A DNA stretch of 64,000 bases, from sequence record PZ445428.1; one strand, given 5' to 3'. Below the pieces are notes generated by a model. It was not told where the DNA came from and did no database searches. It worked only from the letters and a program-made list of their open reading frames with translations. The stretch is from a phage. This document shows, one piece after another, positions 10,460-64,000 of this stretch (the first letter of the stretch is position 1; each line of letters opens with the position of its first letter). A program made the translations under genes and the position numbers.

Positions 10460-10483
10460 ATATTTTATAAATTGGAGACACCT

Positions 10484-47834: not shown

Positions 47835-48045
47835 GGTTGATATAAGTCTAACACCTTACCCAAATAATCATCCTCTAGTTCCTACCTTGTTTAAGGTAAG
47901 GATTAATGATAAAGAATACTTACTAGATTCTTTTGGACATGAATTTGTATTGGAAGCTATAGAGGACAATAGTATCTCTATGGGCGAATTAATTAATAGA
48001 GCAGCCACGTTCGACAAGAGCTGGATGCTAATCTGGAGTAACTAA
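47758..48045 (+). CDS. hypothetical protein (95 aa)
   Basis: ORF track; overlaps upstream ORF by 77 nt. Confidence 0.4.
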   Translation: MEYVVWSNPLALLSHKLFKTTWGRNEVDISLTPYPNNHPLVPTLFKVRINDKEYLLDSFGHEFVLEAIEDNSISMGELINRAATFDKSWMLIWSN

Positions 48046-48230
48046 TGGAAACCTTATTACTAGTAATACTTGGCGGCTCACTCTTAACCATCCTAGGCTT
48101 GATACTTGTATGCAGTCGCCTAAATGTTAAGAATCTAGAACTAAATAGTGAGAACGAAATTCTTAACCGAGAAATTAAACAACATAATATCGCAGCTTGT
48201 AAGCTATTAGATAAACTGGAGAATAAATAA
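48045..48230 (+). CDS. small membrane protein (61 aa)
   Basis: ORF track. Confidence 0.45.
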   Translation: METLLLVILGGSLLTILGLILVCSRLNVKNLELNSENEILNREIKQHNIAACKLLDKLENK

Positions 48231-48862: not shown

Positions 48863-48931
48863 GTAACACACAAGCCTCTACGGAGGCTTTAAAATAAAAA
48901 GCAGGTCATCTGACCTTAAAAAGGAAATACA

Positions 48932-49819
48932 ATGAGTACATATAATTTCAAAGACAAACTGAGACAAAATGCCGGTAAAGGGAAAACTAAGGAAACAAAT
49001 AACATTCCAAATGCTAAGATCCTACCATTCCCTGAACTAACCCAAGAAGAAAAAGATAAACTAGCATTTATGTTTGACACCTTGCTAGGGTTGAATGGGC
49101 GTTTATATTCTACGTTATCTTTAAATGAGAAACGTTTAGTGGAGTTCTTCGGAAAACGTTATCAAGTTACATCTAAGGGTAATGCTCTTAAAGAAGGAGA
49201 GAAACCCTACACAGTTATTAAGATTAGTGCATATGCACATCGTTTTTTAATTCGTGCGCTAGAGACAGAATACTTCACGTTACCCTCATTTAGTGCATTC
49301 CATATCTTCGAAGATGAACGAATGAATATTGATGATTTATATGGAGATCGTTATCAATATTCTGGAAGTCCTTTTCATGATGCATTGAGAAGCTACCCAA
49401 ATTGTTATCTACCAATCAGAGCATCACAAGGTAAAGCAAGTGTCTTTGCAGTGTATTCAGGATCTAAAGCATCTGATATAGAAACTTATATTTATAAAGA
49501 ACGCAGATCTGCTATTCCTGAAGAAGCACGTTATGAAAATCCAATCCTACCAACTAAAGAAGTCAAGGAAACCAAAACTTCTACTACTCAAACAGAATCT
49601 CCTTATCTGAAATTTGAGAAACAAACTGGATGGGTTCTAGAAATGGGTATAGCTTCACCGCTTGCTGCAGCATTCATCAATAGATATCTAGAAATTCCTG
49701 ACGAGTTCCACTCACGTTATAACACGAATATTCAGATCACTGATGAATTAATTGCAATTGCAAAAGATACACCTACAGATACCGAGGCGTATCAAAAAGC
49801 GTACCAAGAACTACTGTAA
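48932..49819 (+). CDS. hypothetical protein (295 aa)
   Basis: ORF track; AAAAGGAAA RBS. Confidence 0.55.
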   Translation: MSTYNFKDKLRQNAGKGKTKETNNIPNAKILPFPELTQEEKDKLAFMFDTLLGLNGRLYSTLSLNEKRLVEFFGKRYQVTSKGNALKEGEKPYTVIKISAYAHRFLIRALETEYFTLPSFSAFHIFEDERMNIDDLYGDRYQYSGSPFHDALRSYPNCYLPIRASQGKASVFAVYSGSKASDIETYIYKERRSAIPEEARYENPILPTKEVKETKTSTTQTESPYLKFEKQTGWVLEMGIASPLAAAFINRYLEIPDEFHSRYNTNIQITDELIAIAKDTPTDTEAYQKAYQELL

Positions 49820-49829
49820 ATATCTGCAT

Positions 49830-49858
49830 GTCTCGGTACACAATACCTGTACCGAGAC
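49830..49858. repeat. perfect 11-bp inverted repeat hairpin (GTCTCGGTACA...TGTACCGAGAC) at end of early gene array
   Basis: Read directly; no U-run follows. Confidence 0.6.
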
Positions 49859-50189
49859 AACAATACAAACTCTCGTTGACAGATAGATTAATGTATGTTA
49901 TCATAACTCTATGAGTTAATAAAATTAACCATTTAGAGTTGCCACACAGAAGGTGTGGTGGTTCAGGAATCTTAAATTACTGACTTGTAGCGTAGGATAC
50001 GGAGCGACAGGACAAGTCAACAGGTAATTTAATAAAGATTACTAGAAACATCACGAGACCTTCTGGCGGGGGCAAAGCTCTATATGAGAACCCTGGGGGA
50101 TCTTATACTTATATAAAAACTGATACTGTCAAATAGGTAAATTAACGTTCAAGATGATACACCGGTTGCCGCTCATCTGCTAGGATGGC

Positions 50190-50470
50190 TCAACACTTTC
50201 TTCTAGACTCCTAAGTTTCTAGGAAAACTCTCGATATCCAGGGCAGTTTTCATTATTCCTAGAAACTCTAGCAATAGGCGGTTAATACAGTAAACTGTCA
50301 TTTCAGTCGCTACCCTCCTTCAATGACAGGGCGGTTATAGGGAGGGCGGTTATTTCTAGGAGACATTTTTTGAAAACACATTTCTGGAAATTCTCATCGG
50401 ATTTGCACATTACATTTCTAGAAATTTATGGTCGGATTTGCACATTGATAGAAGACTCCAGAATTTCTAT
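50190..50470. repeat. cluster of TTTCTAGRAA-type palindromic motifs (about 6 copies)
   Basis: AGTTTCTAGGAAAACT, TTCCTAGAAACT, CATTTCTAGGAGA, TACATTTCTAGAAATTTATG, CCAGAATTTCTATG read in sequence. Confidence 0.5.
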
Positions 50471-50996
50471 GAACATTGAAAATAGCAGCATTATTTCGGG
50501 CCGAAGGCCCATGTTTGCCTGAGTTTTTAGAGCCACAGGAATTTTCACTTGTCAAGCAATTTTGCCCCCTTTAACTAATAAAATTTCACATAATCTCCAC
50601 CTATCTCAAATCTCCCCAAAACATCCCACATTATCCCCAAAAACGCAGCAAATAAGGCGTTTCACGCCATTTCCGCTGCCCCTTCCGTTTCTCCTCTTAT
50701 TTTCTCTCACTGCGTCAACTCTCACACAAACTCACACAATCACACACTCTCTCATCGAACTCACAAAAACTTCATCGGATTCGCACATCTTAACCCTAGA
50801 AAAATCATGTCGTATTTGCACATATGCGGCTGGATTTGTGCGCAGCACGAGTCTGCCCGAGTTTTTAGGAAAATTCATTGTCGGATTTGCACAATATAAA
50901 ATATTTTCGGGTCGGATTTGCACACTACCAAAAATTGTCGGATTCGCACATACACGCCCACGCGTAATTCATGGCGGCAAATGTCGGATTTGCACA
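50394..50996 (+). repeat. array of about 9 direct copies of 14-bp motif GTCGGATT(T/C)GCACA with irregular spacing
   Basis: Copies near 50397, 50431, 50775, 50809, 50830 (degenerate), 50880, 50911, 50937, 50983, all same orientation. Confidence 0.8.
50570..50760 (+). repeat. CA/CT-rich low-complexity tract (CTCACACAA repeats)
   Basis: Strand-biased pyrimidine+A composition; generates spurious Pro/Ser/Thr/His ORFs. Confidence 0.6.
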
Positions 50997-51039
50997 AAAG
51001 CGCAGGGCAAAATGAAAATGCCCTGCTGGCCGAAATGCG

Positions 51040-51175
51040 AATGATAATGAGAACGATTCGCATTTGAGAAGTTGAATGCGAATGAGAATGAGTCGCGTTT
51101 GGAAAGTGGAATGAGAATGGTTATTATTTACAGAGTTGAATGCGAATGAGTCGCATAATGAGAATGATTTGCATT
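51040..51175 (+). repeat. tandem GAATGCGAATGAGAATGA-family repeats
   Basis: GTTGAATGCGAATGAG twice plus several GAATGAGAATG units. Confidence 0.7.
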
Positions 51176-51204
51176 TAGGGAGGGAAGTGAGAAACACTGC
51201 TATT

Positions 51205-51305
51205 TAAGTTATCCACAGGTTTATCAACAGCACGATTTGACTTGACAAAACCCTAGCGATTTTGAGGCGTTTTCAACAGACTTATCAACAGGTTATCCTA
51301 CTGGA
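51205..51305. promoter_or_regulatory. cluster of DnaA-box-like 9-mers (one perfect TTATCCACA, plus TTATCAACA x2 and TTATCCTAC)
   Basis: Consensus TTATCCACA at about 51209-51217; related boxes at about 51221, 51282, 51293. Confidence 0.5.
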
Positions 51306-51345
51306 TAAATATACAGTATTCCTGCGTAGGGAATAACTCTAATAT

Positions 51346-51385
51346 AGCGTTTAAACGCTCTCAAACGCATTCTAAGCGGTTTAAT
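51346..51385 (+). repeat. copy A of ~30-bp repeat AAACGCTCT..AA.GC.ATTCTAAGCG.TTT
   Basis: Near-identical to copy at 54931-54968; inverted related copy at 54393-54430. Confidence 0.55.
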
Positions 51386-51691
51386 TTTGGAGGAGGTATT
51401 TTAATAAGGGGAAATTTGTTTGCAGGCAGAAAAGGCGGGGCCGATAGTTGCGCCCCGTTATTATTAGAGGAGTGGGCAATTATCCCGCTTTGCCATTTCG
51501 CGCCACTCCTCCCACTGTTTCACCTTGCGGCGATGTTCCAAAAACTTTTTAAACCACTGTTTCATAATGCCATCGCACCTAGAATGAGAATGATTATTAT
51601 TAACATTGCAAAGCCGTTCCCAAATCGTAAACGCTGGGAATGTTTCCCAGCGGTATTATTAGATTTATGGGATTGCGTTTTACGCCACCAG

Positions 51692-51877
51692 CTATTCACG
51701 GTAGACACGCCAGCCGTCATTAAACATTTCACGGCTGTAAAATTCATGATTGAATTTGTAACCGTCCTCAGTGGTGATCACTTCATATTTCATGAATAAA
51801 TATTCATGGATAGAAAAATAACGATGGGTTACTTTTTCACCTTCTAGCATAGCCTTTACAGCTTCATTTCTAGTCAT
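51692..51877 (-). CDS. hypothetical protein (61 aa)
   Basis: ORF track; start overlaps stop of upstream gene (ATGA); AAGGTGG RBS. Confidence 0.45.
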   Translation of the reverse strand: MTRNEAVKAMLEGEKVTHRYFSIHEYLFMKYEVITTEDGYKFNHEFYSREMFNDGWRVYRE

Positions 51878-52218
51878 TGCGCCACCTTTCGAAACGCTGT
51901 TTCAATACTTTCAGCGGTTGATTGAATATACGCGCCTTTCATAATCAGGCGCTCTGTACATACTTTGCGGAAAATATCAATAAATTCATCTTCATTTTCT
52001 GCAATCAAAGGCTCACCCATAACCTGAATATCGCATGAGTTAAAAGTAAGAAACTGAAAGGCAAGCTCGCGAGCGACAACGGCATTAATCTTATAATGTG
52101 CTTTTCCTTCATAGATGTTAACCACGCCTTTATAAACTGGTGAAAGCTGATTTAAATAGTTTGCTAACAATGCCGGACGGCAATTAGTTACAAAGCGGTT
52201 GCCTTCATAAATAACCAT
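51874..52218 (-). CDS. hypothetical protein (114 aa)
   Basis: ORF track 51874..52317 trimmed to ATG after AGGAG RBS. Confidence 0.5.
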   Translation of the reverse strand: MVIYEGNRFVTNCRPALLANYLNQLSPVYKGVVNIYEGKAHYKINAVVARELAFQFLTFNSCDIQVMGEPLIAENEDEFIDIFRKVCTERLIMKGAYIQSTAESIETAFRKVAQ

Positions 52219-52354
52219 TAGAAATATACTCCTGTTACCAGATTGTAGCACAAACGGACGGTAGCAGATATTGACAGCGCCACGGCACAAACGCCCCCAA
52301 ACGCCGCCACTATACAAACAACGGTTTCACAAGTTTTTTCAAAATCGCTTTTCA

Positions 52355-52567
52355 TTATAATACCCCACGAAAAGCAGCGTAAAAAGTAGCAAAGTGTTTA
52401 ACCGTTTCCGCTATCAAATTGCCGCGCTTATCAAATTTCTTTTCTGTAACACGGAAAGCGTTTTTGTTGCGCGGTACATATTCAATTTTGCAGTCGTCAC
52501 GCTCAAACGTGTTAACATCCACCAGCTTAAAACCTTTAGAACGGGCAAGGGATACATTTTTCAACAT
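52355..52567 (-). CDS. hypothetical protein (70 aa)
   Basis: ORF track; strong AGGAGG RBS. Confidence 0.5.
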   Translation of the reverse strand: MLKNVSLARSKGFKLVDVNTFERDDCKIEYVPRNKNAFRVTEKKFDKRGNLIAETVKHFATFYAAFRGVL

Positions 52568-52624
52568 TTTACTTCCTCCTAGTAAGGGAATTTTTTACTC
52601 CACCATTTCGGTGTAAAGGCATTA

Positions 52625-52657
52625 TAACAAAAAAGGCCGCCGATTAGGGCGACCTTT
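52625..52657 (-). terminator. hairpin terminator (minus strand)
   Basis: AAGGCCGC...GCGACCTT hairpin with A-run on plus strand to the left. Confidence 0.45.
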
Positions 52658-52670
52658 ACAAAACTTTACA

Positions 52671-53144
52671 TTACGCTATTTCTGTGACTTCAATACTGTA
52701 TAACTCTCTTAAAGCCTGAATGAGAACGTTGTACTCTTCCCATTCTTTCCCCTCGGGAATATATACAAGTTGCTTTAATCGGTTGGCGTATAATAACGCC
52801 TTGTTATCATTAATAGCTACGCCGCCGTGTTTAACAATCCATCGTGTAACAGTTCCAATCGGATCACCGCCATTAACATAAATACCTGATTGCGTCAACT
52901 GATATTTATAGAGGCTGCCTTCAATACTATTATCTTCAATGCCGCTTTCGAAATCCTCATCATTTTCGAAACGAGAAGCATTATCATATGCTAGTTCTTG
53001 GGCGAAAGCGTCCAGATCACAGCCAGCAGGAATAAAATGTTCCTCCGTCCAGTTCTCTCCGCAATAGCCCGTATTGCAATCTGATATAACGATCATATCG
53101 TGGTTAGCTTTCCCGCTAACAGGTAAACCGTATTTCTCTGACAT
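52671..53144 (-). CDS. hypothetical protein (157 aa)
   Basis: ORF track; AGGAGA RBS; CG-rich codon usage unlike the early region. Confidence 0.6.
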   Translation of the reverse strand: MSEKYGLPVSGKANHDMIVISDCNTGYCGENWTEEHFIPAGCDLDAFAQELAYDNASRFENDEDFESGIEDNSIEGSLYKYQLTQSGIYVNGGDPIGTVTRWIVKHGGVAINDNKALLYANRLKQLVYIPEGKEWEEYNVLIQALRELYSIEVTEIA

Positions 53145-53160
53145 TAATTAGTCTCCTAAC

Positions 53161-53193
53161 TAAAAGGGAAAAGGCGGGGCAAACTACCCCGCC
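53161..53193 (-). terminator. rho-independent terminator (minus strand)
   Basis: GGCGGGG-caaacta-CCCCGCC hairpin with A-run on plus strand to the left. Confidence 0.55.
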
Positions 53194-53202
53194 CGATTAT
53201 TA

Positions 53203-54210
53203 TTACTCGCTTTCGGCGTTTTGGGTAAAGGTGGAAATGTCAATGCCTTTTACCATTTCGTCGATCATTTCAGCGATGTTAAAAGATTGTACCATTTCTA
53301 ACATTGCCGCTTCCATTGCCGCGCCTGCTACTGCTTTAGCTTTTGCGTTAGTCGGGGCGTACTGGTCAACCGCTACGCTTAACAGGTTAGCGATCACTAC
53401 GCGGCCAATCGGCGTATCAATATAACCTTTAATCATAAACGGTGCTTTTTTCGCCGCTACTTTTGTGATTTGAGTCAAAGCAATTTTACCCGCTTCCAGT
53501 TTAGCAGCGTTTACAACGGCGGATTTATTAGCGGCGATGATAGAAGTTACTTTAGACATAGTGTTATTTCCTTTATTTTCAGTAGTTTGCGCAATTGCGC
53601 TTGAAGTTTGAGTGTTAGAGCTTACAGCTTGTTTAGCTACGTTGTCAACTGGTTTTAATGTAAATCCAGATTTTGCGACATTCATCACATTATCCTCATC
53701 CTCAAAATAACTTTGAGGAAACAACATGTTACCTGTCGAACGTTCAAAACACAATACGCCGGTAGTAGAAATTGAATCATCTTTCGCGCGGCTAATATGT
53801 GTACCACACTCGCCCCAAATGCTAGACAATAAATCTTCTACACTGCTAGAGTTAATATTAGATACCCGAACGCCGAAAACTTGATCTTTATCCTGTACAT
53901 TATAACCACGGGCAAGATAACCGCGATCGTCATGACCTACAATGATAAAATCAATATTGTTTTCACGGCGATTATTAAAGATGAAATAATCACGGTTATA
54001 TAATACTAAAATCCGCGTAGGATCAAGTAATTGTGTGAAATCATCAATTGAATAATCCACCTCACAATCATCTAAAATCATGCTGTGGATTTGTTCAACC
54101 TTTGCCGCCGTATGGTGAACGCTTGCCGCGCTACTACCATCTAGCAGATTGCGCAAACTACCTTTTAAAATAGTTGCGTTTTCTGGTACTGCAATTCTGG
54201 TCAAAGACAT
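53203..54210 (-). CDS. hypothetical protein (335 aa)
   Basis: ORF track; GAGGGAG RBS; Ala/Lys-rich C-terminal half. Confidence 0.6.
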   Translation of the reverse strand: MSLTRIAVPENATILKGSLRNLLDGSSAASVHHTAAKVEQIHSMILDDCEVDYSIDDFTQLLDPTRILVLYNRDYFIFNNRRENNIDFIIVGHDDRGYLARGYNVQDKDQVFGVRVSNINSSSVEDLLSSIWGECGTHISRAKDDSISTTGVLCFERSTGNMLFPQSYFEDEDNVMNVAKSGFTLKPVDNVAKQAVSSNTQTSSAIAQTTENKGNNTMSKVTSIIAANKSAVVNAAKLEAGKIALTQITKVAAKKAPFMIKGYIDTPIGRVVIANLLSVAVDQYAPTNAKAKAVAGAAMEAAMLEMVQSFNIAEMIDEMVKGIDISTFTQNAESE

Positions 54211-54392
54211 TTCTTTGTCTCCCTCGTTAATCGGTGAGTGAATGATATAGATATTTGTTCACTATGGGCAACGTTTATTTTACCTTTTTATTTTTCTTGC
54301 TCAAATCGAAAAAGTATGCTAACCGCGCGTTTTCTATTTCTAGCTCTCTGTAAGCGTACACAAGGCTTTATTATAATAAGGGTAACAGTGAG

Positions 54393-54430
54393 AAAACCGC
54401 TTAGAATCGATTCTAGACCGCTTAAAATTG
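54393..54430 (-). repeat. inverted copy of TTCTAAGCGG-family repeat
   Basis: AAACCGCTTAGAATCGATTCTAGACCGCTTAAAA. Confidence 0.45.
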
Positions 54431-54930
54431 ATTGCGGTTGTTAGTGCTACCTATTTACCCTGTATATTTATACAGTAGGATAACCTGTTTATAAGTCTGT
54501 AGATAAGTCCTCTTATCTCTGCCTATTGCGTCAAGTTATTTTGTGCTGTGTATAACTTTGGGGATAAGTTAAATGATAGTGGTTCTCACTTAGCCCGATA
54601 GTTTCTCATAGTTATTATTTCTCATTAATTTATATGTATATTATATATTATGGAATAGTTAGTTGGCTAATAGGATTTTCCGTGATTAATAGTCTGCTAA
54701 TGATAACGCATGTTACAATCCACCAGCGCGATTACCATCCTAGCGACTGTTAGCGTGCTAATGATCCATAACGTTACCAATTCTTAAATGATACTCATTC
54801 TCATTGTAGGAAAGTTACGAAATGCTGTTATAAAGCAACATGTCAATAGCAAAGCGGGTAAGGCATAAAAATAAATTTTGTCAATACCCGAAAGTTATTA
54901 AATGTGGTGTGAATAAGTTATCAACAGGGT

Positions 54931-54968
54931 CTAAAACGCTCTGTAAGCGATTCTAAGCGCTTTTGATG
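54931..54968 (+). repeat. copy B of ~30-bp repeat, preceded by DnaA-box-like TTATCAACA
   Basis: CTAAAACGCTCTGTAAGCGATTCTAAGCGCTTTTGATG; TTATCAACA at about 54918. Confidence 0.55.
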
Positions 54969-55377
54969 AAAAGCTATCCCATCATAAGGGGACTATACCG
55001 AACGCCTCACCACGAGGATTTTAGATTTTGTCAAGTACCCTAGAGCAGATATAAATGAAAAAATTACTTGCTTAAATGGTTGTTTTCGTGTTATTCGCGC
55101 GCCCGTTTCATTAAATTTAGTGCCTTGCTGGACGTTTGCGGAGACTGGTTTTCTTTACGTTTCTTTACAAAAATAAGGTTGCGCCATTTTCGGGAATAAC
55201 CTATTATTTATCTCGTAGGACGGCAAGACGGAAACGAAAGGCCAGAATACACGGTAAGGATAACAGCGATTGACAGTCTGTATGACCTTTCAAAACCTTA
55301 CCACGCTCTTTAAAAATCAGGTACAAGATACATATTAAAGCCTATCGGCTTACTCCACTAAACAAGGATAAGACGAT

Positions 55378-55569
55378 ATGAGAGAAAAACTGTATGATGC
55401 GACTATTTCAAATGAAATCAGGACGCTAGATAAAATTACAGTAGAACAAGCCGAAAATGTGATTAAATTTGTTGAAAAATATGATGGTGAATGTTTCTTT
55501 ATAAGAGACGATATCTACGCATGTTGTTACAAATCACATAATTTTTCAGTTACTCATAAAGGTTTATAA
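55378..55569 (+). CDS. hypothetical protein (63 aa)
   Basis: ORF track. Confidence 0.45.
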   Translation: MREKLYDATISNEIRTLDKITVEQAENVIKFVEKYDGECFFIRDDIYACCYKSHNFSVTHKGL

Positions 55570-55570
55570 T

Positions 55571-55780
55571 ATGAAACAATCTCTTTTGCTAACGGGTAAA
55601 CCTGCTAGCCCATTAAACAGCAGAACAAAAAAGCTCTTGACAGTAGCGCAACAATCCGTAAAATACAGATTCAAGCAATACAAGAAAGGCAAGCAACAAG
55701 GTTTAGAAATGGTGTGGCGTAATATAATGATTGATTTATATAACTCACATCAAATCGAAAAAAGTTTAAAAAACGCTTGA
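55571..55780 (+). CDS. hypothetical basic protein (69 aa)
   Basis: ORF track. Confidence 0.45.
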   Translation: MKQSLLLTGKPASPLNSRTKKLLTVAQQSVKYRFKQYKKGKQQGLEMVWRNIMIDLYNSHQIEKSLKNA

Positions 55781-55962
55781 CGCTCCAGCCGATAGGCTCT
55801 AATATGTATCTCGTACCACGGCGAATGACAAAACGCCCTGCTCTTTAAAAATTTGGATAACGGTAATGTTTAGGCTAACTCCTAGCGGATTATAATCTAA
55901 TACCGATTTAAAACATCAAATCGGTATTGTGGAATAATCCCCAATAAACCGGAGTATTAAAA

Positions 55963-56214
55963 ATGCAAAACGTTATTACCGCGCCGAAAGTTGGTCAATC
56001 TGTATTCATTCCTTTTGTTACTAAAACGGATGAATTAACCGGAAAAGCCGAACGTATTAAAGGTGCGGCGCTTGATCCTTTCGATAAAATCGAAGCGGTC
56101 TATGCGGAAACGGAACGCAGTAACCACGGCAAGCCGATTTATAACGTCCGTGTTAAATCAGGCGACGTTGTAAAGATCATTCAAAAAGATGATAAATGGC
56201 AAGCTATCGCATAA
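55963..56214 (+). CDS. hypothetical protein (83 aa)
   Basis: ORF track; GGAGTATTAAAA before ATG. Confidence 0.5.
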   Translation: MQNVITAPKVGQSVFIPFVTKTDELTGKAERIKGAALDPFDKIEAVYAETERSNHGKPIYNVRVKSGDVVKIIQKDDKWQAIA

Positions 56215-56470
56215 TAAGCGGTAACGATTTTAAATTAAAATATCATGCTTAGAGCGGCAATTATGAGCTAACTCGAAGTAATAGCGAGAAATTACCATAC
56301 CAGTGAAAGTGATAAAAGCTATCGGTTATAACCTTTAGCGCCTTAATTGGCTTTAAATTGAAAACTATAATCTAGAGTTTTCGTTATATATTTCGTGACT
56401 ATATACCGGAATATATAGCGGCTAATTCTAGCCATAATCCCTTAATTAAAAATTGAATGGAGTATTAAAT

Positions 56471-56887
56471 ATGTCTAACGTTAAAACCGAAAAAACCGCA
56501 AAATTCTCTTGGAACGAAGAAAACACCGAAAAAGCGGTATCAATGTATAATACTTTCGTAAAAGATAGCGGCATTGAATTTGCTAACACTGACGGCTTAA
56601 AAGAAATTGCCGCCGCCGTTGGCGCTGCAAGTCCTGTTTCTGTACGTTCTAAATTGACAAGCGCGAAAGCGTATCAGAAAAGCGATAAACCGCGTAAAGT
56701 TGGCGGCGGGTCTAGTGTCCGTAAAGCTCACTATGTACGCGTCATTGCTAAACACGCCATTGATTCAGGTATCGTAAAAGATGCTGACGATCTGGCATCG
56801 CTGGAAAGTGCAAAATTGGAAACGCTGGACGCGGTAGCGCAATTGCTCGGCGTAGCGGAGGAAGTAAAACAGGCCGCAGGTGAATAA
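56471..56887 (+). CDS. hypothetical protein (138 aa); possible A2-like pre-early protein
   Basis: ORF track 56453..56887 trimmed to ATG after AATGGAGT; size and position relative to A1-like gene fit T5 A2 (inference only). Confidence 0.4.
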   Translation: MSNVKTEKTAKFSWNEENTEKAVSMYNTFVKDSGIEFANTDGLKEIAAAVGAASPVSVRSKLTSAKAYQKSDKPRKVGGGSSVRKAHYVRVIAKHAIDSGIVKDADDLASLESAKLETLDAVAQLLGVAEEVKQAAGE

Positions 56888-56936
56888 ATTTTAATTAGCG
56901 GGGAATATTCCCCGCTATCCCTGAAAGGAGAATAAA

Positions 56937-57164
56937 TTGATTTTCTATCCTAGCGAGTCGCTAATATTAGGTTTATTCCTGATAGCGGTTATATTTATCT
57001 TTAATTACGGTAAATATATAATTGCAATAATCGGTATTAATTCAGTATATGCCGCCGATAAATTTAAACGATCGGCAAATGTGCAAAAGTATTTAGCCAT
57101 TATCTTTTTAACGCTGGCTATAGCTTGCGGTTTTAGTTCTAGTCTAGTGCCTATATTAGAATAA
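56937..57164 (+). CDS. small membrane protein (75 aa), TTG start
   Basis: ORF track; AAAGGAGA RBS. Confidence 0.35.
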   Translation: MIFYPSESLILGLFLIAVIFIFNYGKYIIAIIGINSVYAADKFKRSANVQKYLAIIFLTLAIACGFSSSLVPILE

Positions 57165-57270
57165 TATTGCAAATTATAACGCCTTTAAAAGTCCCCACTT
57201 CGGGTAAGGCGTTATATTTGGCAATATTGCCAGTATTAATAATTATCCCTTTAATGGAGTTGAATTAGTT

Positions 57271-58935
57271 ATGAATATTTCCGCTGAAAAACAAGCTCAA
57301 ATCGTTAAACTTGCTGCTGATTTTAATTTCTACGGTAAACGTTTACGCGCTACTAAGCTGGAAGTGTGCGACGATATTTCAAAAGCTGTTTACGATACAA
57401 CGAAACATTCAACCGCAATCTGTGACTGGCTGGAAGCAAACAAGCCAGCAAAACCAAAAGCGGCAAAAGCTGAAAAGGCGATTAAAAATGATGATCGCCC
57501 CGAAGCGGCAGGGATTGTTTCTAGTACCGTTGAACAATGGGAAGTTAAATCCGGTCGCCGTTTTATTCTAACGTCGATTCAAAATAACACTTTCCCGCAT
57601 AAAAACTTTTTAGCAAGTCTGGAAAAATTCGCTGATTATATCGGCGCTGAATTGCTGATTAGTAAATTCATTTACAATAAAAACGGCTTCCAGAATGGTG
57701 AAGGTAGCGACGGCATTAAATACGATCCCGCATTTAATAAATATATTTGCGAGAAAAACGTATTTTTGAATAATCGCCGCTTTGCTTTCATGGCTGAAAT
57801 TAACGTATTACCAACGGCAGATTATCCGCTTTCAGGATTCGCAGAAACCGCCACGGCTTTAAATATTGAAGGTTTGGCAATCGGTCACGCTAAAATCACC
57901 GCTGAAAGTGTGCCAGCGTTAAAAGGTGAAATTGTGCGCCGTATGTATTCAACCGGAACGGCTACGCTTAAAAACTACATCCAGCAGAAAGCAGGTCAAA
58001 AAGCTGAAGCGTTACATAATTTCGGCGCTTTGCTGGTGGAGTTCGACGACGACGGCGAATTTTTTGTTCGCCAGCTTGAAACAATGGATGAAAGCGGAAT
58101 GTTCTATGATTTGAATATTTGCGCCACTCCTAGCGGTTGCAAAGAAATTACAGGACACGTTTTAGGCTTGCAATATGGCGATATTCATGCCGAAAAATTA
58201 GATGATGAATGTGCCGTTGCGTCATGGGCTAGTGAAAATTCATTGCTGGATATTCTTAAACCGAAATATCAGTTTATTCATGATGTGCATGATTTTACAT
58301 CCCGCAATCACCATAACCGCGCAAGTGGTGTATTCCTTGCTAAACAGTACGCCGCAGGACGTGACAAAGTTCTGGATGATCTAATTGATACGGGTCGCGT
58401 ATTGGAATCAATGGAGCGTGATTTTAGTCAGACAATCATTGTTGAATCTAACCATGATTTAGCGCTTTCACGCTGGCTTGATGATCGCAACGCTAACATT
58501 AAGGACGATCCCGCAAACGCCGAACTATATCACCGCCTGAATGCAGCCATTTACGCCGCAATCGGTGAACGTGATGAAACGTTTAACGTGTTAGATTACG
58601 CGCTTAGAAACGTTGCTGGCTGCGAATTTAACGCCATATTCCTGACTACTGACCAGTCGTTTAAAATCGCTGGCATTGAATGCGGCGTACATGGTCACAA
58701 CGGCATTAACGGCAGTCGTGGCAATCCTAAGCAGTTTAAGAAACTTGGACGCCTTAACACTGGTCACACTCACACGGCTAGTATTTACGGCGGCGTTTAT
58801 ACCGCTGGCGTTGCTGGTAATCTTGATATGGGCTACAACGTCGGCGCTAGTAGCTGGACGCAAACGCATTTAATTACCTATGCAAACGGTCAAAGAACAT
58901 TGATTGACTTTAAGAATGGTAAATTCTTTGCATAA
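57271..58935 (+). CDS. A1: A1-like pre-early protein (metallophosphoesterase-type nuclease domain)
   Basis: 554-aa ORF with GDIHAE and HD..H metallophosphatase-like motifs; size close to T5 A1 and adjacent to dmp-like gene. Confidence 0.6.
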   Translation: MNISAEKQAQIVKLAADFNFYGKRLRATKLEVCDDISKAVYDTTKHSTAICDWLEANKPAKPKAAKAEKAIKNDDRPEAAGIVSSTVEQWEVKSGRRFILTSIQNNTFPHKNFLASLEKFADYIGAELLISKFIYNKNGFQNGEGSDGIKYDPAFNKYICEKNVFLNNRRFAFMAEINVLPTADYPLSGFAETATALNIEGLAIGHAKITAESVPALKGEIVRRMYSTGTATLKNYIQQKAGQKAEALHNFGALLVEFDDDGEFFVRQLETMDESGMFYDLNICATPSGCKEITGHVLGLQYGDIHAEKLDDECAVASWASENSLLDILKPKYQFIHDVHDFTSRNHHNRASGVFLAKQYAAGRDKVLDDLIDTGRVLESMERDFSQTIIVESNHDLALSRWLDDRNANIKDDPANAELYHRLNAAIYAAIGERDETFNVLDYALRNVAGCEFNAIFLTTDQSFKIAGIECGVHGHNGINGSRGNPKQFKKLGRLNTGHTHTASIYGGVYTAGVAGNLDMGYNVGASSWTQTHLITYANGQRTLIDFKNGKFFA

Positions 58936-58987
58936 TTAAATTTAATCGGCGGTTGAAATATACCGCCATTAATAAAAGGATAATTAA

Positions 58988-59260
58988 ATGTCTATTAAAA
59001 TTAATATTCCATCTAGTAAAAACGTGTCAGATGTTTACGATATTAGCCAGATAAGGCAGGGCACTGTATATCAAAATATTAAAGATGGTGAATGTTATAT
59101 TTACCAGAATGAATTAAACGGTCATTCATATATTATTGAATCACACGATTTTTATTCTTTTGAAACTGACCACGAGGCAAGGGAATTTATTTCTGATAAT
59201 GATTTGCCTGACGCATGGAAAGAAACAAATCTAAACTTTGTTGTAAGTTTAGAAAAATAA
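58988..59260 (+). CDS. hypothetical protein (90 aa)
   Basis: ORF track. Confidence 0.45.
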   Translation: MSIKINIPSSKNVSDVYDISQIRQGTVYQNIKDGECYIYQNELNGHSYIIESHDFYSFETDHEAREFISDNDLPDAWKETNLNFVVSLEK

Positions 59261-59296
59261 ATTAATCCCGTAATTAAATAATCTGGAGTTATAAAC

Positions 59297-59689
59297 ATGA
59301 AACAATCAAACATTCCTTTTGATCGCGCCGCTTCTTCAATCGTTCTGGTTTATTCTAATGGTGAACGCTATCACGTTGAATCAGGTCATGTTATCGACGA
59401 TTTGCTAAACTATAACGAAGCGTTACAGGTTACAACGTTTGCATATATGACAGGGAAAGCGGCAAGCCATATTAAAGCAAAAGGCGTTTATGTCGATACA
59501 ATCAAACAAGAAACGATTATTATCGATGCTGTTAAATCCGGTCTAGCGTTTGCAGTTGTCGCGCCGTGTCTCGGTTGCCTTGATGATCAAATGGTATCGG
59601 CAAAGGTCTACACTTGCGCGGGGATTCGTTCTAGCGTATCCGGTGAAGATGTTAGCTTTATTGCTGATGCTCTCGCTTTTGGTCTGTAA
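59297..59689 (+). CDS. hypothetical protein (130 aa)
   Basis: ORF track. Confidence 0.5.
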   Translation: MKQSNIPFDRAASSIVLVYSNGERYHVESGHVIDDLLNYNEALQVTTFAYMTGKAASHIKAKGVYVDTIKQETIIIDAVKSGLAFAVVAPCLGCLDDQMVSAKVYTCAGIRSSVSGEDVSFIADALAFGL

Positions 59690-59778
59690 TAGTTAATTGA
59701 ACATTGCCAGCTAATCTAATATAATTAGCTGGCAAGATTGAATTAATAACCCAGTCCCTTAAATGGAGAAAGTAACAA

Positions 59779-60513
59779 ATGAATCAAGTTAACATGAATA
59801 TTACCCGCACTTTCCCGCATATTTCCCGCGTTATGATTTGGGATTTAGACGGAACGGTTATAAATAGTTTTCATCGTGTAGCGCCTTGCTTTGATGATAA
59901 CGGGAATTTAGATTTAGTTAAGTATTCCCGCGAAGCCTGCAAACATGATTTAATTATGCAGGATTCTTTATTGCCATTGGTTGAATATATGCGCCAATGT
60001 ATGAATGATGCTAATACATTAAACATCATTTGCACCGCTCGCTTAATGTCTAAAAGCGATTATTTCTACTTACGTAAACAAGGTCTAAGAGGGCGCGGAA
60101 ATAGTAACATTCGCGTGTTTTCCCGAGATACATTACATAAATACTTTGAAGCGGAAAAGGTTAGCGATATATATCACAGCAAAGACGCTGTATATAAATC
60201 TTATTACTTTGAACTGTTTAAACAGCTATATCCGAACGCTGATTTTACGATGATTGATGATCATAAAGGCGTATTATCAGCAGCAGCAAACGCAGGATTT
60301 AAAACACTGGACGCTCAAGCCGTTAACGATATCCTATCAATCGGGGTAACATTGATCGGTGAAACCTTTATTGATGAATCGCTTGATGATGATAACGATT
60401 ATCAATTCCTAGCCGAACGTTTAAAAATGTGTTGGGAAGGTATGACCGAAGAAGAACGCAGCGAATATAGTACCACGCCGCAACAGTTCATTGATAAATT
60501 AAAAGTTGCCTAA
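59779..60513 (+). CDS. dmp: 5'-deoxyribonucleotidase-like HAD-family hydrolase
   Basis: 244-aa ORF; HAD motif I IWDLDGTVI near N-terminus; size matches T5 dmp. Confidence 0.6.
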   Translation: MNQVNMNITRTFPHISRVMIWDLDGTVINSFHRVAPCFDDNGNLDLVKYSREACKHDLIMQDSLLPLVEYMRQCMNDANTLNIICTARLMSKSDYFYLRKQGLRGRGNSNIRVFSRDTLHKYFEAEKVSDIYHSKDAVYKSYYFELFKQLYPNADFTMIDDHKGVLSAAANAGFKTLDAQAVNDILSIGVTLIGETFIDESLDDDNDYQFLAERLKMCWEGMTEEERSEYSTTPQQFIDKLKVA

Positions 60514-60677
60514 CAATTAAAAATAAAATAGTCACGGTGTGTAATGATAACATGCCGTGACTATTAGCTTGCTAAGTACCGGGGCGGTAATGAGACTCAT
60601 TCTCATCTGGGGAACCACTGGGCCCACCTCCATGTGTAATCTTATGAAATTTGGCAAAAAGGTAATTAGCGCTAAAC

Positions 60678-60923
60678 TTAGGAGGAACGCCTATCTACTG
60701 GCTTATCTCCCGATTCTGACATACGAAATCTCCTCCGAGAACTTCTTGAGCCATCGCTCCACTCCCGCTCGAACTCCTCCCGTTTCTCCGCAAACCTCCT
60801 CTCTCTTTCCGAAAGCTCCCGCATCAGCCCCGAGACATATTCACGATGCCTGTTGATTGCCGCAGCCGTCCCGAAAATACCTGCAAGCACCCCGATAATA
60901 AATATGATTACTAAAGTTGACAT
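60678..60923 (-). CDS. small membrane protein (81 aa)
   Basis: ORF track 60678..60959 trimmed to internal ATG (MSTLVIIFIIG...). Confidence 0.35.
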   Translation of the reverse strand: MSTLVIIFIIGVLAGIFGTAAAINRHREYVSGLMRELSERERRFAEKREEFEREWSDGSRSSRRRFRMSESGDKPVDRRSS

Positions 60924-61031
60924 TATCCCACACACCCCGCCATTGCCGCAATAAACCAAACTACGAAAATTAGAAATAGTACAGTCCCGAATCCGAAACT
61001 ATTTATCCAACTCTCGTACACTTCCCCTCTT

Positions 61032-61310
61032 TTATTTCTTCTGTTGTCGTTTGACATCTCTTTGCTTCTCCTGTAAGCCTGGTATTTGGAAGATCCTAGA
61101 TATTGCACGAACCATTACGACTGTCCCGATAAGATCCATTACTTCATCGAAGCCGGATTCTTCTAGTAAGAAGGATGTTCCCATAACATCTTCCATTGTA
61201 TCTTGTATGACGTCTTGAATAATTTCGTTTATTGCATCATGTATTGCCTTTGTCTTGGGATCTAACTCTAGAGGTAGAGGTTCCTGAAAAGGCTTATCAT
61301 TTTCTTGCAT
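61032..61310 (-). CDS. hypothetical acidic protein (92 aa)
   Basis: ORF track. Confidence 0.4.
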   Translation of the reverse strand: MQENDKPFQEPLPLELDPKTKAIHDAINEIIQDVIQDTMEDVMGTSFLLEESGFDEVMDLIGTVVMVRAISRIFQIPGLQEKQRDVKRQQKK

Positions 61311-61384
61311 TGTGTTTGCTACCTGTACCTCATCCCAAAAATAAAAATTTTTGTTTACTTCGAGATCTTTTTAATTTATACTAA

Positions 61385-61651
61385 TTACAAGTATCCAGAT
61401 TGTTCGAGATTAAATTTACAATCACCGTATTTTAAATCGAATTGTGATAAGTCCCACCAACCAAATTTAGTACGCATCTGTACTTTAGGGAAACGATATC
61501 CTACTTCACGAACATCTCGGATTGTTAAGCTATAGTGACCCGACCCTGCTGCCCACGAAGTTTTCACATATGAAGTACAGAATGGTTTCGGTTGTGGTGC
61601 ACAGCCAGATAATAGTGTTATAGTAGCTAAAGCGATTAGTAACTTTTTCAT
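61385..61651 (-). CDS. llp: lipoprotein, Llp-like (putative lytic-conversion / receptor-blocking lipoprotein)
   Basis: ORF track 61385..61669 trimmed to ATG (MKKLLIALATITLLSGC...); lipobox LLSGC; divergent from adjacent receptor-binding protein gene as in T5 llp-oad. Confidence 0.5.
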   Translation of the reverse strand: MKKLLIALATITLLSGCAPQPKPFCTSYVKTSWAAGSGHYSLTIRDVREVGYRFPKVQMRTKFGWWDLSQFDLKYGDCKFNLEQSGYL

Positions 61652-61734
61652 TTTAGTTCTCCAGTTCAATTTATAAATATATTATAACAAAATAATAGGA
61701 ACAGAGCAACTACATTTTTAATTTAGGAGATTGT

Positions 61735-63507
61735 ATGGGTTTTTTCGCAGGAAAGTTTAGTGATGGTAAAACAGTATTATCACTAACAAACAATAATGGT
61801 GGAGACACCAATGAACATTACAGTCCTGGTGGTAATACAATATTTCACTCTGATATGCCCTTCGTTCTAGTAGACGGGACATATGAGGCTGCTCTAGGTA
61901 ACGCCGGTAATGGGTATTTTGTTTGTGCGATGCCTTCTGATATCATTAATATGAAGTCTAATGATCCTGGTAGAGTAATCCTTACTGCTATTGAGATTAA
62001 TGGTACGCATAGGGGGTTCCTCAATGGTACACAATCGCAAGTAGGTCAGTATCTTACTTTTGCAGAAGAGCCATCACGCGCATTTGCTGCTGTTGGATTA
62101 AGTTCAGCTTTTGCTATTGGGGATAGTTTGGCTAGTGGTACATATATATACAATAGTTTAATAGGTCATGAAGAATCTATAGCGCGTCAAGGTACTGGTG
62201 GTACACTAATTCAGGGTTCTGATTTTGGTATAGTAAGGCCAGGTGGATTTGTACCTGCAGGTGAAGCTATTGCAGGGGCTTATGATTTACTAGGCTTCCC
62301 CAAAGGGTCTAGTACTGTACCTTTGGATGGTGGAAATGCTAAATACTGGGATCCGAACTGGTATAACCCTATTGGGTCTGCTGGTAGGGGGCATAATCAT
62401 TTTTATGTGTGTAGCTCTAACATTCGTAGCTACATCGGAAAGAAAAGAGAAGTTCCTGCGAATACTAACGTATTCTATAACCCTAGTACTCTAGTTTACG
62501 CATGTAGGGGATCCGCTAGTAACATGGCTAGTCAGTCTGTTAACACCGTTTATGTTCAGGATTGGTATAATATTACTCCGACCAAAGTTATTTGGTATGT
62601 ACTGAATCTACGTTATTCAAATGGTAATATGGGAGTTTCTGGAACTCCCTTTACTGGTTCTGATATACTTATTTCCCCCTCTAATTTTACTATTAAAGGT
62701 GTTAGTCTCCCTAACACAGGATATAAGTTCATTAACCAGAATGCTTTTGGGAACTTGGGTTATCGTCCTGACATGGAGTACGTGGGTAATAATGCTGCGT
62801 ATACTGGAGTTTTTGGCGATACAACCGCTAGATGTGAGTTCATTGGCTCTAATAATGGTAGTCTATGGTCCCCTGTAAACTACGGAGGTGCTGCCTCCCA
62901 GATTAGTATATACAAGTTTAATGCGGGTAAACAGTGGTACGTAGATACTAATACTAACTCTATTGGCAACGAACATGGGGCTGTGTGGAGTCCAAGTACA
63001 GTTCCTCTCAGATTATTTCCAAATAACGTGGCTAGTACGTATGTTGGGGATGATATTACTCCTTCGTACCCAGGTACTGGAGATTACTATCTTCCTCTAT
63101 CAACTGTTTGGTTGGGGCTACCTAATGCCCATTCTACTATCATCCTAACTACTGAAGTTATTATGGGTAATATTAATACTGCCGGACAACCAATACGTAC
63201 GTATGGTGGTAGTGCTTGGCAGGTACAGGGTAGGCGTCAACAGAGCTATACTGCGGGTGATGGAGTATTCCACCAAATATTGACTTTGCCACCTGGTTAC
63301 TTAGTACCTTATCATGGAACTTCTTCTTATAGCTATTGGCAATTATGGGGTAGTAGACCAGATATGGAATTCCGTAGAAACGGATATATCTACACAGTAA
63401 AGAACCTGGGTAATGGTAATGTCGAGTTCGGTGTAATTATACATGCTGGATCTCAGGCTGCTATATTCCTACCAAGACTACGTGTAACTGCACAGCGCCT
63501 GACCTAA
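61735..63507 (+). CDS. receptor-binding tail protein (pb5/Oad/Hrs-like)
   Basis: 590-aa Gly/Asn/Ser/Thr/Tyr-rich ORF next to llp-like gene; GGAGATTGT RBS. Confidence 0.55.
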
Positions 63508-63518
63508 AGGAGGTAATT

Positions 63519-64000
63519 ATGGCAAATGATGTTTTAGTACCTGATCTCATGTCTCCTGAAGGCATGGACGTAATTGAGGCTTATCTACAATGTGGTAGTG
63601 ATGTACGAATGGCCTCACGTACTCTTGGAATGTCGGAAATTGCATTCCGCGATATTATGAATCGTGGTGAGGTAAAGAATTATCTCAACGACATATTTAT
63701 GGAGAGTGGCTTCCGCAATCGTGACAAGTTATTTGGTGTACTCGATGAAGTCATCAAGCGCAAGTTGGAAGAACTCGAAGAAACTGGTATGGGATCTGAC
63801 CAGGATATCATGGATATTCTGTGGAAAGCCCATAAAATGAAGATGGAAGAAATGAAGATGATGGTAGAGCTGGAGAAAGCGAGAGCTGCTACACGTGCTC
63901 CTACTAATCAGACTAACATTCAGAACAACATTATTGCTGGCTCCGGTGATCAGAACTACATGGACTTAATTACTTCGCTAGCAACTGGAGGTAGAAAGTA
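63519..64000 (+). CDS. HTH DNA-binding protein, possibly terminase small subunit (3' end beyond window)
   Basis: AAGGAGG RBS; helix-turn-helix-like [16 protein letters not shown]; no stop before window end. Confidence 0.35.

What the first reader, a model, noticed from the sequence alone, without database searches (positions are those of the whole stretch)
55378..60513. Pre-early (first-step-transfer) module with A1-like and dmp-like genes plus unannotated small genes
A 554-aa metallophosphoesterase-type protein (A1-like), a 244-aa HAD-family 5'-nucleotidase (dmp-like) and a 138-aa candidate A2-like protein sit in the order expected for T5 pre-early genes once the map is reverse-complemented. 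Six further small ORFs (63-130 aa) in the same operon have no recognisable motifs. In T5 this region carries host-shutoff and anti-restriction activities whose genes are not all assigned.
Basis: partly seen in the sequence, partly recalled or inferred. Interest (0 to 1): 0.55.

Follow-up and report, generated by a model that had tools for sequence, protein, structure and literature searches.

The report
T5-type pre-early genes, already annotated

Summary
The window matches Escherichia phage TrudiGerster (Bas27, MZ501108.1, Epseptimavirus) at 100% identity over 54200-61800. All nine ORFs at 55378-60513 exist and are already annotated there. The 554-aa, 244-aa and 138-aa proteins are 91%, 89% and 88% identical to T5 A1, Dmp and A2, in T5's gene order once reverse-complemented.

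Five of the six small ORFs are orthologues of T5.008 (Hdi, an FtsZ-targeting division inhibitor), 007, 005 (two-TM membrane protein), 003 and 002. All five are under purifying selection (dN/dS 0.05-0.30).

A1 carries the invariant metallophosphoesterase motifs. Its model matches PolD-DP1 exonuclease, Mre11 and SbcD. Dmp carries HAD motifs I-IV.

That block also holds a divergent arm (T5.011/014/015 orthologues) and an iss-like repeat region.

Corrections: the arm has several promoters, so it is not one simple operon. "No recognisable motifs" is too strong.

The only unusual element is the 63-aa ORF at 55378-55569. It is a lineage-specific insertion absent from all other deposited phages.

Verdict: confirmed, already known, low interest.

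The parts
55378..55569 (+). 63-aa ORF (bas27_0188). A lineage-specific ORFan on a ~200-bp insertion immediately upstream of hdi. Function unknown.
   Evidence: ORF and SD sequence. No match to T5.009. Absent from T5, GreteKellenberger and STK8t at this position. tblastn finds it only in TrudiGerster among 50,697 phage records. Only one 97%-identical cluster, in the same context, in the 5.8-billion-protein collection.
55571..55780 (+). Hdi (T5.008) orthologue, 69 aa, basic (pI 10.4). Host division inhibitor acting on FtsZ in T5.
   Evidence: 75% identity to T5.008. Pfam DUF7416 at E 6e-38. Function of the T5 protein: PMC10714956 and Annor et al. 2026.
55637..55664 (+). Strongest sigma-70-like promoter match (TTGACA-16-TAAAAT), inside the hdi ORF. 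Positional equivalent of T5 promoter P-H22.
   Evidence: T5 P-H22 (4799-4873) lies inside T5.008. This is a consensus match plus positional homology only, not shown to be active.
55963..56214 (+). T5.007 orthologue, 83 aa, all-beta. Function unknown. One of the most conserved Demerecviridae pre-early genes.
56471..56887 (+). A2 orthologue, 138 aa. DNA-binding protein needed for second-step transfer.
   Evidence: 88% identity to T5 A2. PHROG 1725 'DNA binding protein' at E 2e-49. Annotated as A2 protein.
56937..57164 (+). T5.005 orthologue, 75 aa, hydrophobic membrane protein (TTG start).
   Evidence: 45% identity to T5.005. GRAVY 1.2 with hydrophobic windows across the protein. PHROG 4820 'membrane protein'. 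dN/dS 0.09 against Epseptimavirus relatives.
57271..58935 (+). A1 orthologue, 554 aa. N-terminal three-helix domain, a beta-rich middle domain, and a C-terminal metallophosphoesterase domain. Drives host-DNA degradation and is required for second-step transfer.
58988..59260 (+). T5.003 orthologue, 90 aa, acidic (pI 4.5). Function unknown. A variable slot in the family.
   Evidence: 65% identity to T5.003. PHROG 23906. dN/dS 0.17-0.30. The same slot in GreteKellenberger holds an unrelated sequence.
59297..59689 (+). T5.002 orthologue, 130 aa. Function unknown.
   Evidence: 84% identity to T5.002. PHROG 4576 at E 5e-78. dN/dS 0.05-0.21.
59779..60513 (+). Dmp orthologue, 244 aa. HAD-superfamily deoxynucleoside-5'-monophosphatase.
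   Evidence: 89% identity to T5 Dmp. Invariant D22xD24xT26, T86, K140 and D160-D161 in 40 homologues. The profile hits MDP-1 and the T4 PNK phosphatase domain.
60527..60565 (+). Hairpin just downstream of dmp. T5 has a hairpin of different sequence at the same place. Probably the terminator at the end of this arm.
   Evidence: Inverted repeat I25. Alignment with the T5 left end. Function is inferred.
60566..60624 (.). Approximate position of the genome's physical left terminus (outer end of the terminal repeat), placed by homology to T5 position 1.
   Evidence: Alignment of window 60480-60720 with T5 1-160 reverse-complemented: similarity ends near window 60624. Inferred; the deposited record holds one collapsed repeat copy.
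54211..55377 (.). 1.17-kb non-coding divergent control region between the two pre-early arms. T5 carries hegG here; TrudiGerster does not.
   Evidence: No ORF above 68 aa. No annotated CDS. Conserved blocks shared with T5, GreteKellenberger and STK8t. Repeats shared with the iss-like region.
51874..54210 (-). Second, divergently transcribed pre-early arm: orthologues of T5.011 (335 aa), T5.014 (70 aa) and T5.015 (114 aa), plus a 157-aa ORF and a 45-aa ORF.
   Evidence: 55%, 93% and 90% identity to T5.011, T5.014 and T5.015. The 157-aa ORF has no match to T5.012.
50240..51500 (.). Injection-stop-signal (iss)-like repeat region at the inner end of the terminal repeat.
   Evidence: Aligns with T5 9000-10500, which contains the annotated iss at 9140-10149. 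Eight copies of GTCGGATTTGCACA, AATGAGAATGA repeats, and a consensus TTATCCACA DnaA box within 51208-51230.

Best explanation
Window 55378-60513 is one of the two transcription arms of the pre-early (first-step-transfer, FST) host-takeover module of the T5-like phage TrudiGerster. It lies inside the ~10.1-kb terminal repeat (about 50530-60624).

How it works:
1. Inferred from T5/BF23/Bas33 biology: only this end of the genome enters the cell first. Injection pauses at the iss-like repeat region (50240-51500).
2. Inferred from promoter position and T5 homology: host sigma-70 RNA polymerase transcribes the arm from strong promoters in and around hdi.
3. Orthology shown here, function shown in T5: A1 is an HTH-like N-terminal domain fused to a Mre11/SbcD/PolD-DP1-like metallophosphoesterase domain. 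It degrades the host chromosome, shuts off host and pre-early expression, and acts with A2 to restart DNA transfer. A2 is the DNA-binding partner.
4. Dmp, a HAD phosphatase, converts the released dNMPs to nucleosides, which are excreted.
5. Hdi blocks FtsZ-ring formation.
6. Orthologues of 002, 003, 005 and 007 are real, selected genes. They are dispensable in the laboratory in T5 and have unknown roles, most plausibly host- or defence-specific accessory functions.
For: - Identity: 100% match to an annotated Epseptimavirus genome.
- Orthology: 88-91% protein identity to T5 A1, A2 and Dmp, and 45-84% for five small proteins, in exact T5 synteny.
- Selection: dN/dS 0.05-0.30 for the informative comparisons.
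- Dmp: invariant HAD motifs I-IV and profile hits to HAD phosphatases.
- Genome context: an iss homologue and homology to both T5 terminal-repeat boundaries. A CCWGG-free block at 50238-61078 coincides with the predicted repeat.
- Functional literature on T5: Annor et al. 2026, Hdi in PMC10714956, Davison 2020, Bas33 transcriptomics and two-fold repeat coverage in PMC13250531, and retron-Ec67 escape mutations in A1.
Against: - Nothing in the window contradicts this explanation.
- The deposited record holds a single collapsed copy of the repeat. Duplication, the exact termini and first-step injection are therefore inferred by homology, not shown for this phage.
- No expression data exist for TrudiGerster.
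- In-vitro nuclease activity of A1 has not been reported, even for T5.
- Pfam and NCBIfam models do not reach significance for A1 or Dmp.
- The 63-aa ORF has no counterpart in T5, and its expression is unproven.
Confidence: 0.95

Rival explanations
1. The genes are T5 pre-early homologues, but A1 is not itself the DNase. Instead it acts as a phosphatase or regulator that unleashes a host nuclease and modulates RNA polymerase.
Confidence: 0.15
2. The 63-aa ORF at 55378-55569 is not a functional gene. It would be a chance reading frame on an insertion scar, or non-coding leader, upstream of hdi.
For: No homologue exists outside near-identical copies. No family hit reaches significance. Only six nucleotide differences from the one relative are available, three of them non-synonymous positions in two codons, so selection cannot be measured. 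The region is a known hot spot of insertions and deletions.
Against: It has an AAGGA Shine-Dalgarno sequence 8-9 nt upstream of the ATG. Its stop lies one base before the hdi start, an arrangement that suggests translational coupling. The frame is intact in two independent metagenome contigs despite six substitutions, three of them synonymous third-position changes. It is annotated as a CDS.
Confidence: 0.35
3. In this phage the module is an ordinary internal early-gene region. It would not be part of a terminal repeat and would not be injected first.
For: The GenBank record is a single-copy, 114,179-bp linear sequence with no annotated repeat. The module sits internally between early genes and the llp/receptor-binding-protein genes.
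Against: That arrangement is exactly what a collapsed repeat gives: T5 has ...oad-llp | repeat | early genes. Both T5 repeat boundaries and the iss region have homologues at the expected places. A 10.8-kb CCWGG-free block matches the predicted repeat. Studied relatives have long terminal repeats: BF23 about 9.7 kb, and Bas33 shows two-fold coverage over this region.
Confidence: 0.03

Closest known systems
Bacteriophage T5 left terminal repeat, genes T5.001-T5.008 (dmp, 002, 003, A1, 005, A2, 007, hdi), NC_005859 1-4918
   Same: Same eight genes in the same order and relative orientation, at 45-91% protein identity. A promoter-like site lies inside hdi. There is a hairpin after dmp close to the genome end. 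A divergent second arm and an iss region lie beyond.
   Different: TrudiGerster lacks hegG (an HNH endonuclease) and T5.009. It carries a unique 63-aa ORF in front of hdi. The 005 protein is 10 residues longer and only 45% identical. T5.012 is replaced by an unrelated 157-aa ORF. The genus is Epseptimavirus, not Tequintavirus.
Pre-early regions of other Epseptimavirus phages (GreteKellenberger/Bas26, STK8t, SuperGirl, Salmonella phages S147, SE24 and others)
   Same: About 86-88% nucleotide identity over 87-90% of the region, with the same gene set and annotation (A1, A2, dmp).
   Different: These phages have a different hdi 5' end and lack the 63-aa ORF. GreteKellenberger has an unrelated gene in the 003 slot and an extra 57-aa ORF further upstream.
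Mre11/SbcD and archaeal PolD DP1 metallophosphoesterase nucleases (for the A1 C-terminal domain)
   Different: Only 12-16% sequence identity. No Pfam Metallophos hit at E <= 0.1. No Rad50/SbcC-type partner. A1 adds an N-terminal HTH-like domain and pairs with A2. Nuclease activity has not yet been shown in vitro.
HAD-superfamily phosphatases: MDP-1 and the T4 polynucleotide kinase 3'-phosphatase domain (for Dmp)
   Same: DxDxT, T, K and DD motifs are conserved. The profile matches both at E 0.002-0.008. PHROG 415 groups Dmp with 'polynucleotide kinase'.
   Different: Dmp has no kinase domain and carries a ~60-residue C-terminal extension. Its substrate is 5'-dNMPs (T5 literature).

Membership tests
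T5-type pre-early (FST) module of Demerecviridae | A1 orthologue present | tested here: met
   91% identity over 554/556 aa to T5 A1. PHROG 1745 at E 2e-243.
T5-type pre-early (FST) module of Demerecviridae | A2 and dmp orthologues present | tested here: met
   88% identity to T5 A2 and 89% to T5 Dmp.
T5-type pre-early (FST) module of Demerecviridae | Conserved synteny hdi-007-A2-005-A1-003-002-dmp on one strand, ending near a genome terminus | tested here: met
   The ORF order matches the T5 map. Homology to the T5 left end finishes about 110 nt past the dmp stop.
T5-type pre-early (FST) module of Demerecviridae | Adjacent iss-type non-coding repeat region with DnaA boxes | tested here: met
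   Window 50240-51500 aligns with T5 9000-10500, which contains the iss. Repeat families and a TTATCCACA box are present.
T5-type pre-early (FST) module of Demerecviridae | Located in a long direct terminal repeat, present twice in virion DNA | tested here: inconclusive
   The record and the window contain one copy only, and the window wraps the record end. Boundaries are inferred by homology at about 50530 and 60624. A CCWGG-free block at 50238-61078 agrees with them.
T5-type pre-early (FST) module of Demerecviridae | Injected first and transcribed before the rest of the genome | not testable with these tools
   Known for T5, BF23 and Bas33. No data exist for TrudiGerster.
Calcineurin-like metallophosphoesterase superfamily (A1 C-terminal domain) | Signature motifs DxH / GDxxD / GNH(D/E) / H / GHxH | tested here: met
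   GD304IH306, D338VHD341, S393NHD396, H474 and GH499TH501 are all invariant in 44 homologues of 40-93% identity.
Calcineurin-like metallophosphoesterase superfamily (A1 C-terminal domain) | Beta-sandwich metallophosphoesterase fold | tested here: met
Calcineurin-like metallophosphoesterase superfamily (A1 C-terminal domain) | Match to the curated sequence model (Pfam Metallophos, or NCBIfam) | tested here: not met
   No Metallophos hit at E <= 0.1 in Pfam and none in NCBIfam. No PDB sequence hit at E <= 10. A1 is therefore a structural and motif-level member that is divergent in sequence.
Calcineurin-like metallophosphoesterase superfamily (A1 C-terminal domain) | Metal-dependent phosphoester (DNA) hydrolysis | not testable with these tools
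   T5 A1 is necessary and sufficient for chromosome degradation in vivo. In-vitro activity has not been reported.
HAD superfamily phosphatase (Dmp) | Motifs I (DxDxT), II (T/S), III (K) and IV (DD) | tested here: met
   D22, D24, T26, K140 and D161 are invariant; T86 and D160 are at least 90% conserved, in 40 homologues of 28-51% identity.
HAD superfamily phosphatase (Dmp) | Sequence-profile similarity to solved HAD enzymes | tested here: met
   The profile hits MDP-1 (2wm8, E 0.0024; 1u7o, E 0.0048) and T4 PNK (5uj0, E 0.0077). The single sequence gives E 0.18-0.25 to HAD hydrolases at motif I. The matches are weak but consistent. There is no Pfam or NCBIfam hit at E <= 0.1.
HAD superfamily phosphatase (Dmp) | 5'-deoxynucleotidase activity | not testable with these tools
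   Established biochemically for T5 Dmp according to the literature cited. Here it is inferred from 89% identity.
Hdi (T5.008) host division inhibitors | Sequence membership | tested here: met
   75% identity to T5.008. Pfam DUF7416 at 128.7 bits against a cutoff of 27.
Hdi (T5.008) host division inhibitors | Inhibition of FtsZ-ring formation | not testable with these tools
   Shown for T5.008 (PMC10714956).

The most novel reading that the evidence does not exclude
The lineage-specific 63-aa ORF (55378-55569) has been inserted at the promoter-proximal head of the pre-early arm, and its stop abuts the hdi start. It could be a newly acquired host-takeover or anti-defence gene. More broadly, one of the conserved unknowns (007, 002 or 003) could encode a still-unassigned T5 pre-early function, such as restriction insensitivity, protection from RecBCD, or protection of phage DNA from A1.
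Probability: 0.2. Interest if true: 0.45.

Novelty: already known. Interest (0 to 1): 0.12.

Why it matters
As it stands, the finding re-derives existing annotation of a published BASEL-collection phage, so it adds little.

The module itself matters. It is the textbook example of two-step DNA injection and of very fast host-chromosome destruction. Its small genes are still candidates for unassigned T5 functions: restriction insensitivity, RecBCD protection, inhibition of methylation, and self-protection from A1.

Three by-products here could guide experiments:
- The residue-level metallophosphoesterase and HAD site lists for A1 and Dmp.
- The one ORFan that distinguishes TrudiGerster from all deposited relatives.
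- The complete absence of CCWGG sites, and the general shortage of 4-bp palindromes, exactly across the predicted first-injected DNA.

Tried and rejected
- Pfam and NCBIfam scans gave nothing significant for A1, A2, Dmp, 002, 003 or the 63-aa ORF. Conclusions for A1 and Dmp therefore rest on motifs, profiles and fold.
- phmmer of A1 against PDB sequences gave no hit even at E <= 10.
- Rfam at a permissive threshold found nothing credible in 48000-64000.
- The sigma-70 and terminator consensus scans were barely above shuffled expectation overall (43 sites vs 37; 16 vs 10). Only the sites with positional homology to T5 are used.
- EcoRI and EcoKI site absence in the predicted repeat is in the expected direction but not significant on its own, with only 1-3 sites expected.
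- I considered that the region might be chance ORFs or an unrelated metallophosphoesterase/HAD pair. This was rejected on ~90% identity to T5 proteins and on dN/dS.
- The Python sandbox did not receive loci L002 and L004-L007. Comparisons were therefore made with protein comparison and DNA alignment, and dN/dS was computed from the stored alignments.
Full report
**Identity of the window.** Megablast of window 54200-61800 against 50,697 phage records gives a 100% identical, full-length match to Escherichia phage TrudiGerster. This is MZ501108.1 / NC_105114.1, Bas27 of the BASEL collection, in Demerecviridae, Markadamsvirinae, Epseptimavirus. A further 150-odd T5-like phages match at about 86-88% identity. 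The GenBank record already annotates every ORF of the finding as bas27_0188 to bas27_0196 and names the A2 protein, the A1 protein and the dNMP-monophosphatase. The record ends at window 63518. Window 63519-64000 is the start of the record (terminase small subunit), so the window was cut from a circularised copy.

**Check of the observation.** The nine + strand ORFs are at the stated coordinates, and each has a GGAG/AGGA-type ribosome-binding site. I compared them with the T5 left terminal repeat (NC_005859 1-12500):

| Window protein | T5 counterpart | Identity |
|---|---|---|
| 554 aa | A1 | 91% |
| 244 aa | Dmp | 89% |
| 138 aa | A2 | 88% |
| 130 aa | T5.002 | 84% |
| 90 aa | T5.003 | 65% |
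| 75 aa | T5.005 | 45% |
| 83 aa | T5.007 | 80% |
| 69 aa | T5.008 | 75% |
| 63 aa | T5.009 | no match |

From codon alignments with T5, GreteKellenberger and STK8t, Nei-Gojobori dN/dS is 0.05-0.30 for every gene, including the five conserved small ones. The exceptions are 005 against T5, where dS is saturated, and 003 against GreteKellenberger, which is not a homologous pair. So these are real, selected genes.

**The two enzyme assignments: Dmp.** Forty homologues of 28-51% identity keep D22-x-D24-x-T26, T86, K140 and D160-D161, which are HAD motifs I-IV. The profile hits magnesium-dependent phosphatase-1 and the T4 polynucleotide-kinase phosphatase domain at E 0.002-0.008.

**The small ORFs.** "No recognisable motifs" is too strong.
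- The 69-aa protein is Pfam DUF7416 (E 6e-38). It is the orthologue of T5.008 = Hdi, which inhibits division through FtsZ (PMC10714956).
- The 83-aa protein is DUF7177. It is the 007 gene, which is among the most widely conserved pre-early genes and which Davison suggested as a candidate for restriction insensitivity.
- The 75-aa protein is a hydrophobic membrane protein.
- Per Annor et al. 2026, T5 mutants lacking 002, 003, 005 and 007, among the thirteen dispensable pre-early genes, are viable, and none of the four is toxic when expressed alone. [quoted passage not shown]

**The one element that is not ordinary.** The 63-aa ORF at 55378-55569 sits on a ~200-bp insertion between a conserved inverted-repeat arm and the hdi coding sequence. 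The insertion is absent from T5, GreteKellenberger and STK8t. tblastn finds the ORF only in TrudiGerster among all deposited phages. The 5.8-billion-protein collection holds a single 97%-identical cluster, from two Logan metagenome contigs with the same 63aa-hdi-007-A2 context. Six nucleotide differences separate the copies: three are synonymous third-position changes and three fall in two changed codons. That is too few to measure selection. Its function is unknown and its expression unproven.

- A 1.17-kb non-coding control region lies at 54211-55377. T5 has the HNH gene hegG here; TrudiGerster does not.
- Beyond it lies a divergently transcribed arm with orthologues of T5.011 (55%), T5.014 (93%) and T5.015 (90%), plus an unrelated 157-aa ORF.
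- Further left, 50240-51500 aligns with the T5 injection-stop-signal region. It contains eight copies of GTCGGATTTGCACA, AATGAGAATGA repeats and a consensus DnaA box, as Davison described for 25 T5-like phages.
- By homology to T5 positions 1 and 10219, the terminal repeat would span about window 50530-60624, or 10.1 kb. The record holds one collapsed copy, so this is inferred.

An independent signal agrees with these boundaries. CCWGG occurs 66 times in the window but never between 50238 and 61078. About 12 sites are expected in the predicted repeat from the density elsewhere, and 6.4 from a first-order Markov model, with 0 of 500 simulations as low. Several 4-bp palindromes (TGCA, AGCT, GATC, TCGA, GTAC) are at roughly 0.55-0.6 of the density elsewhere. 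The T5 repeat has two CCWGG sites in 10.2 kb. This fits restriction-site avoidance in DNA that enters the cell before any protective protein can be made. That reading is my inference.

**Operon structure.** The arm is not a single simple operon. In T5 the strong promoters P-H22 and P-D/E20 lie inside and just downstream of hdi. Here the best sigma-70 match in 12 kb (TTGACA-16-TAAAAT, 55637-55664) is also inside hdi. Conserved hairpins sit after A2, between 005 and A1, after A1, between 002 and dmp, and after dmp. Their roles as terminators, attenuators or processing sites are not tested.

**Mechanism, with status of each step.**
- Shown here: orthology, synteny, purifying selection, catalytic motifs and folds, and homology of the iss region and repeat boundaries.
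- Taken from T5, BF23 and Bas33 literature: first-step injection and the pause at iss; pre-early transcription by host RNA polymerase; A1-dependent host DNA degradation and shut-off; A1 plus A2 for second-step transfer; Dmp converting dNMPs to nucleosides; Hdi blocking FtsZ; A2 as the trigger of ColIb abortive infection; and A1 N-terminal-domain mutations escaping retron Ec67. Four of those five mutated residues (A15, C33, I36, S47) are unchanged in the TrudiGerster protein in the alignment.
- Inferred for this phage: the timing, the repeat duplication, and that A1 itself is the nuclease.

**Verdict.** The module is already known and already annotated in the public record, so interest is low. 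The residual novelty lies in the 63-aa ORFan and in the still-unassigned functions of 002, 003 and 007.

Noticed in passing
window 50238-61078: A 10.8-kb block with no CCWGG (Dcm/EcoRII) site coincides with the predicted terminal repeat. There are 66 sites elsewhere in the window and the next largest gap is 5.0 kb. Four-base palindromes (TGCA, AGCT, GATC, TCGA, GTAC) are at about 0.55-0.6 of the outside density. The T5 repeat has only two CCWGG sites.
   Followed up: partly
window 50240-51500: Non-coding repeat region homologous to the T5 injection stop signal. It has eight copies of GTCGGATTTGCACA, tandem AATGAGAATGA-type repeats, and a consensus TTATCCACA DnaA box within 51208-51230.
   Followed up: partly
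window 51264-51316 and 54460-54512: A 53-nt inverted repeat (89% complementary) brackets the whole minus-strand pre-early arm. Further shorter repeats link the iss-like region with the 54211-55377 control region.
   Followed up: no
window 55320-55350 and 55787-55817: A 31-nt inverted repeat (94% complementary) brackets the 63-aa ORF plus hdi. The core of both arms (CCTATCGGC / GCCGATAGG) is conserved in T5, GreteKellenberger and STK8t, so hdi is flanked by a conserved long-range pairing.
   Followed up: no
window 52671-53144 (- strand): This 157-aa ORF (bas27_0186) in the second pre-early arm has no similarity to T5.012, which occupies the equivalent position. It is acidic and cysteine-containing, and its function is unknown.
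   Followed up: partly
L004 (GreteKellenberger) 4847-5125 versus window 58988-59260: The T5.003 slot between A1 and 002 holds an unrelated gene of similar length in GreteKellenberger (17% amino-acid identity in a forced alignment). This slot is therefore a replacement hot spot.
   Followed up: no
window 63519-64000: The window runs past the end of the GenBank record and continues with its first 482 bases (terminase small subunit). It was therefore taken from a circularised sequence, and the receptor-binding-protein / terS junction at 63518/63519 is a record boundary, not biology.
   Followed up: yes
A1 homologues (e.g. P0066, P0070, P0074, P0082, P0086, P0107): Many 43-50% identical A1 homologues lie on contigs of 40-150 kb. 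Some carry N-terminal HTH Pfam domains (PF13384, PF04218, PF13936). I did not check whether these contigs are Demerecviridae or a wider distribution of A1-like nucleases.
   Followed up: no
window 56888-56915, 57163-57228, 58947-58968, 59693-59746, 60527-60565: Hairpins lie in nearly every intergenic gap of the arm, and several are conserved in T5 and the two Epseptimavirus relatives. The hairpin after dmp differs in sequence from T5's but is a hairpin in both.
   Followed up: no
L002 (T5, NC_005859) 8086-8298 versus 8300-8644: The RefSeq record puts the 'endonuclease nicking abasic sites generated by Ung' label on T5.014 (70 aa). The literature assigns that activity to gene 015. This may be an annotation offset in the reference record.
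   Followed up: no
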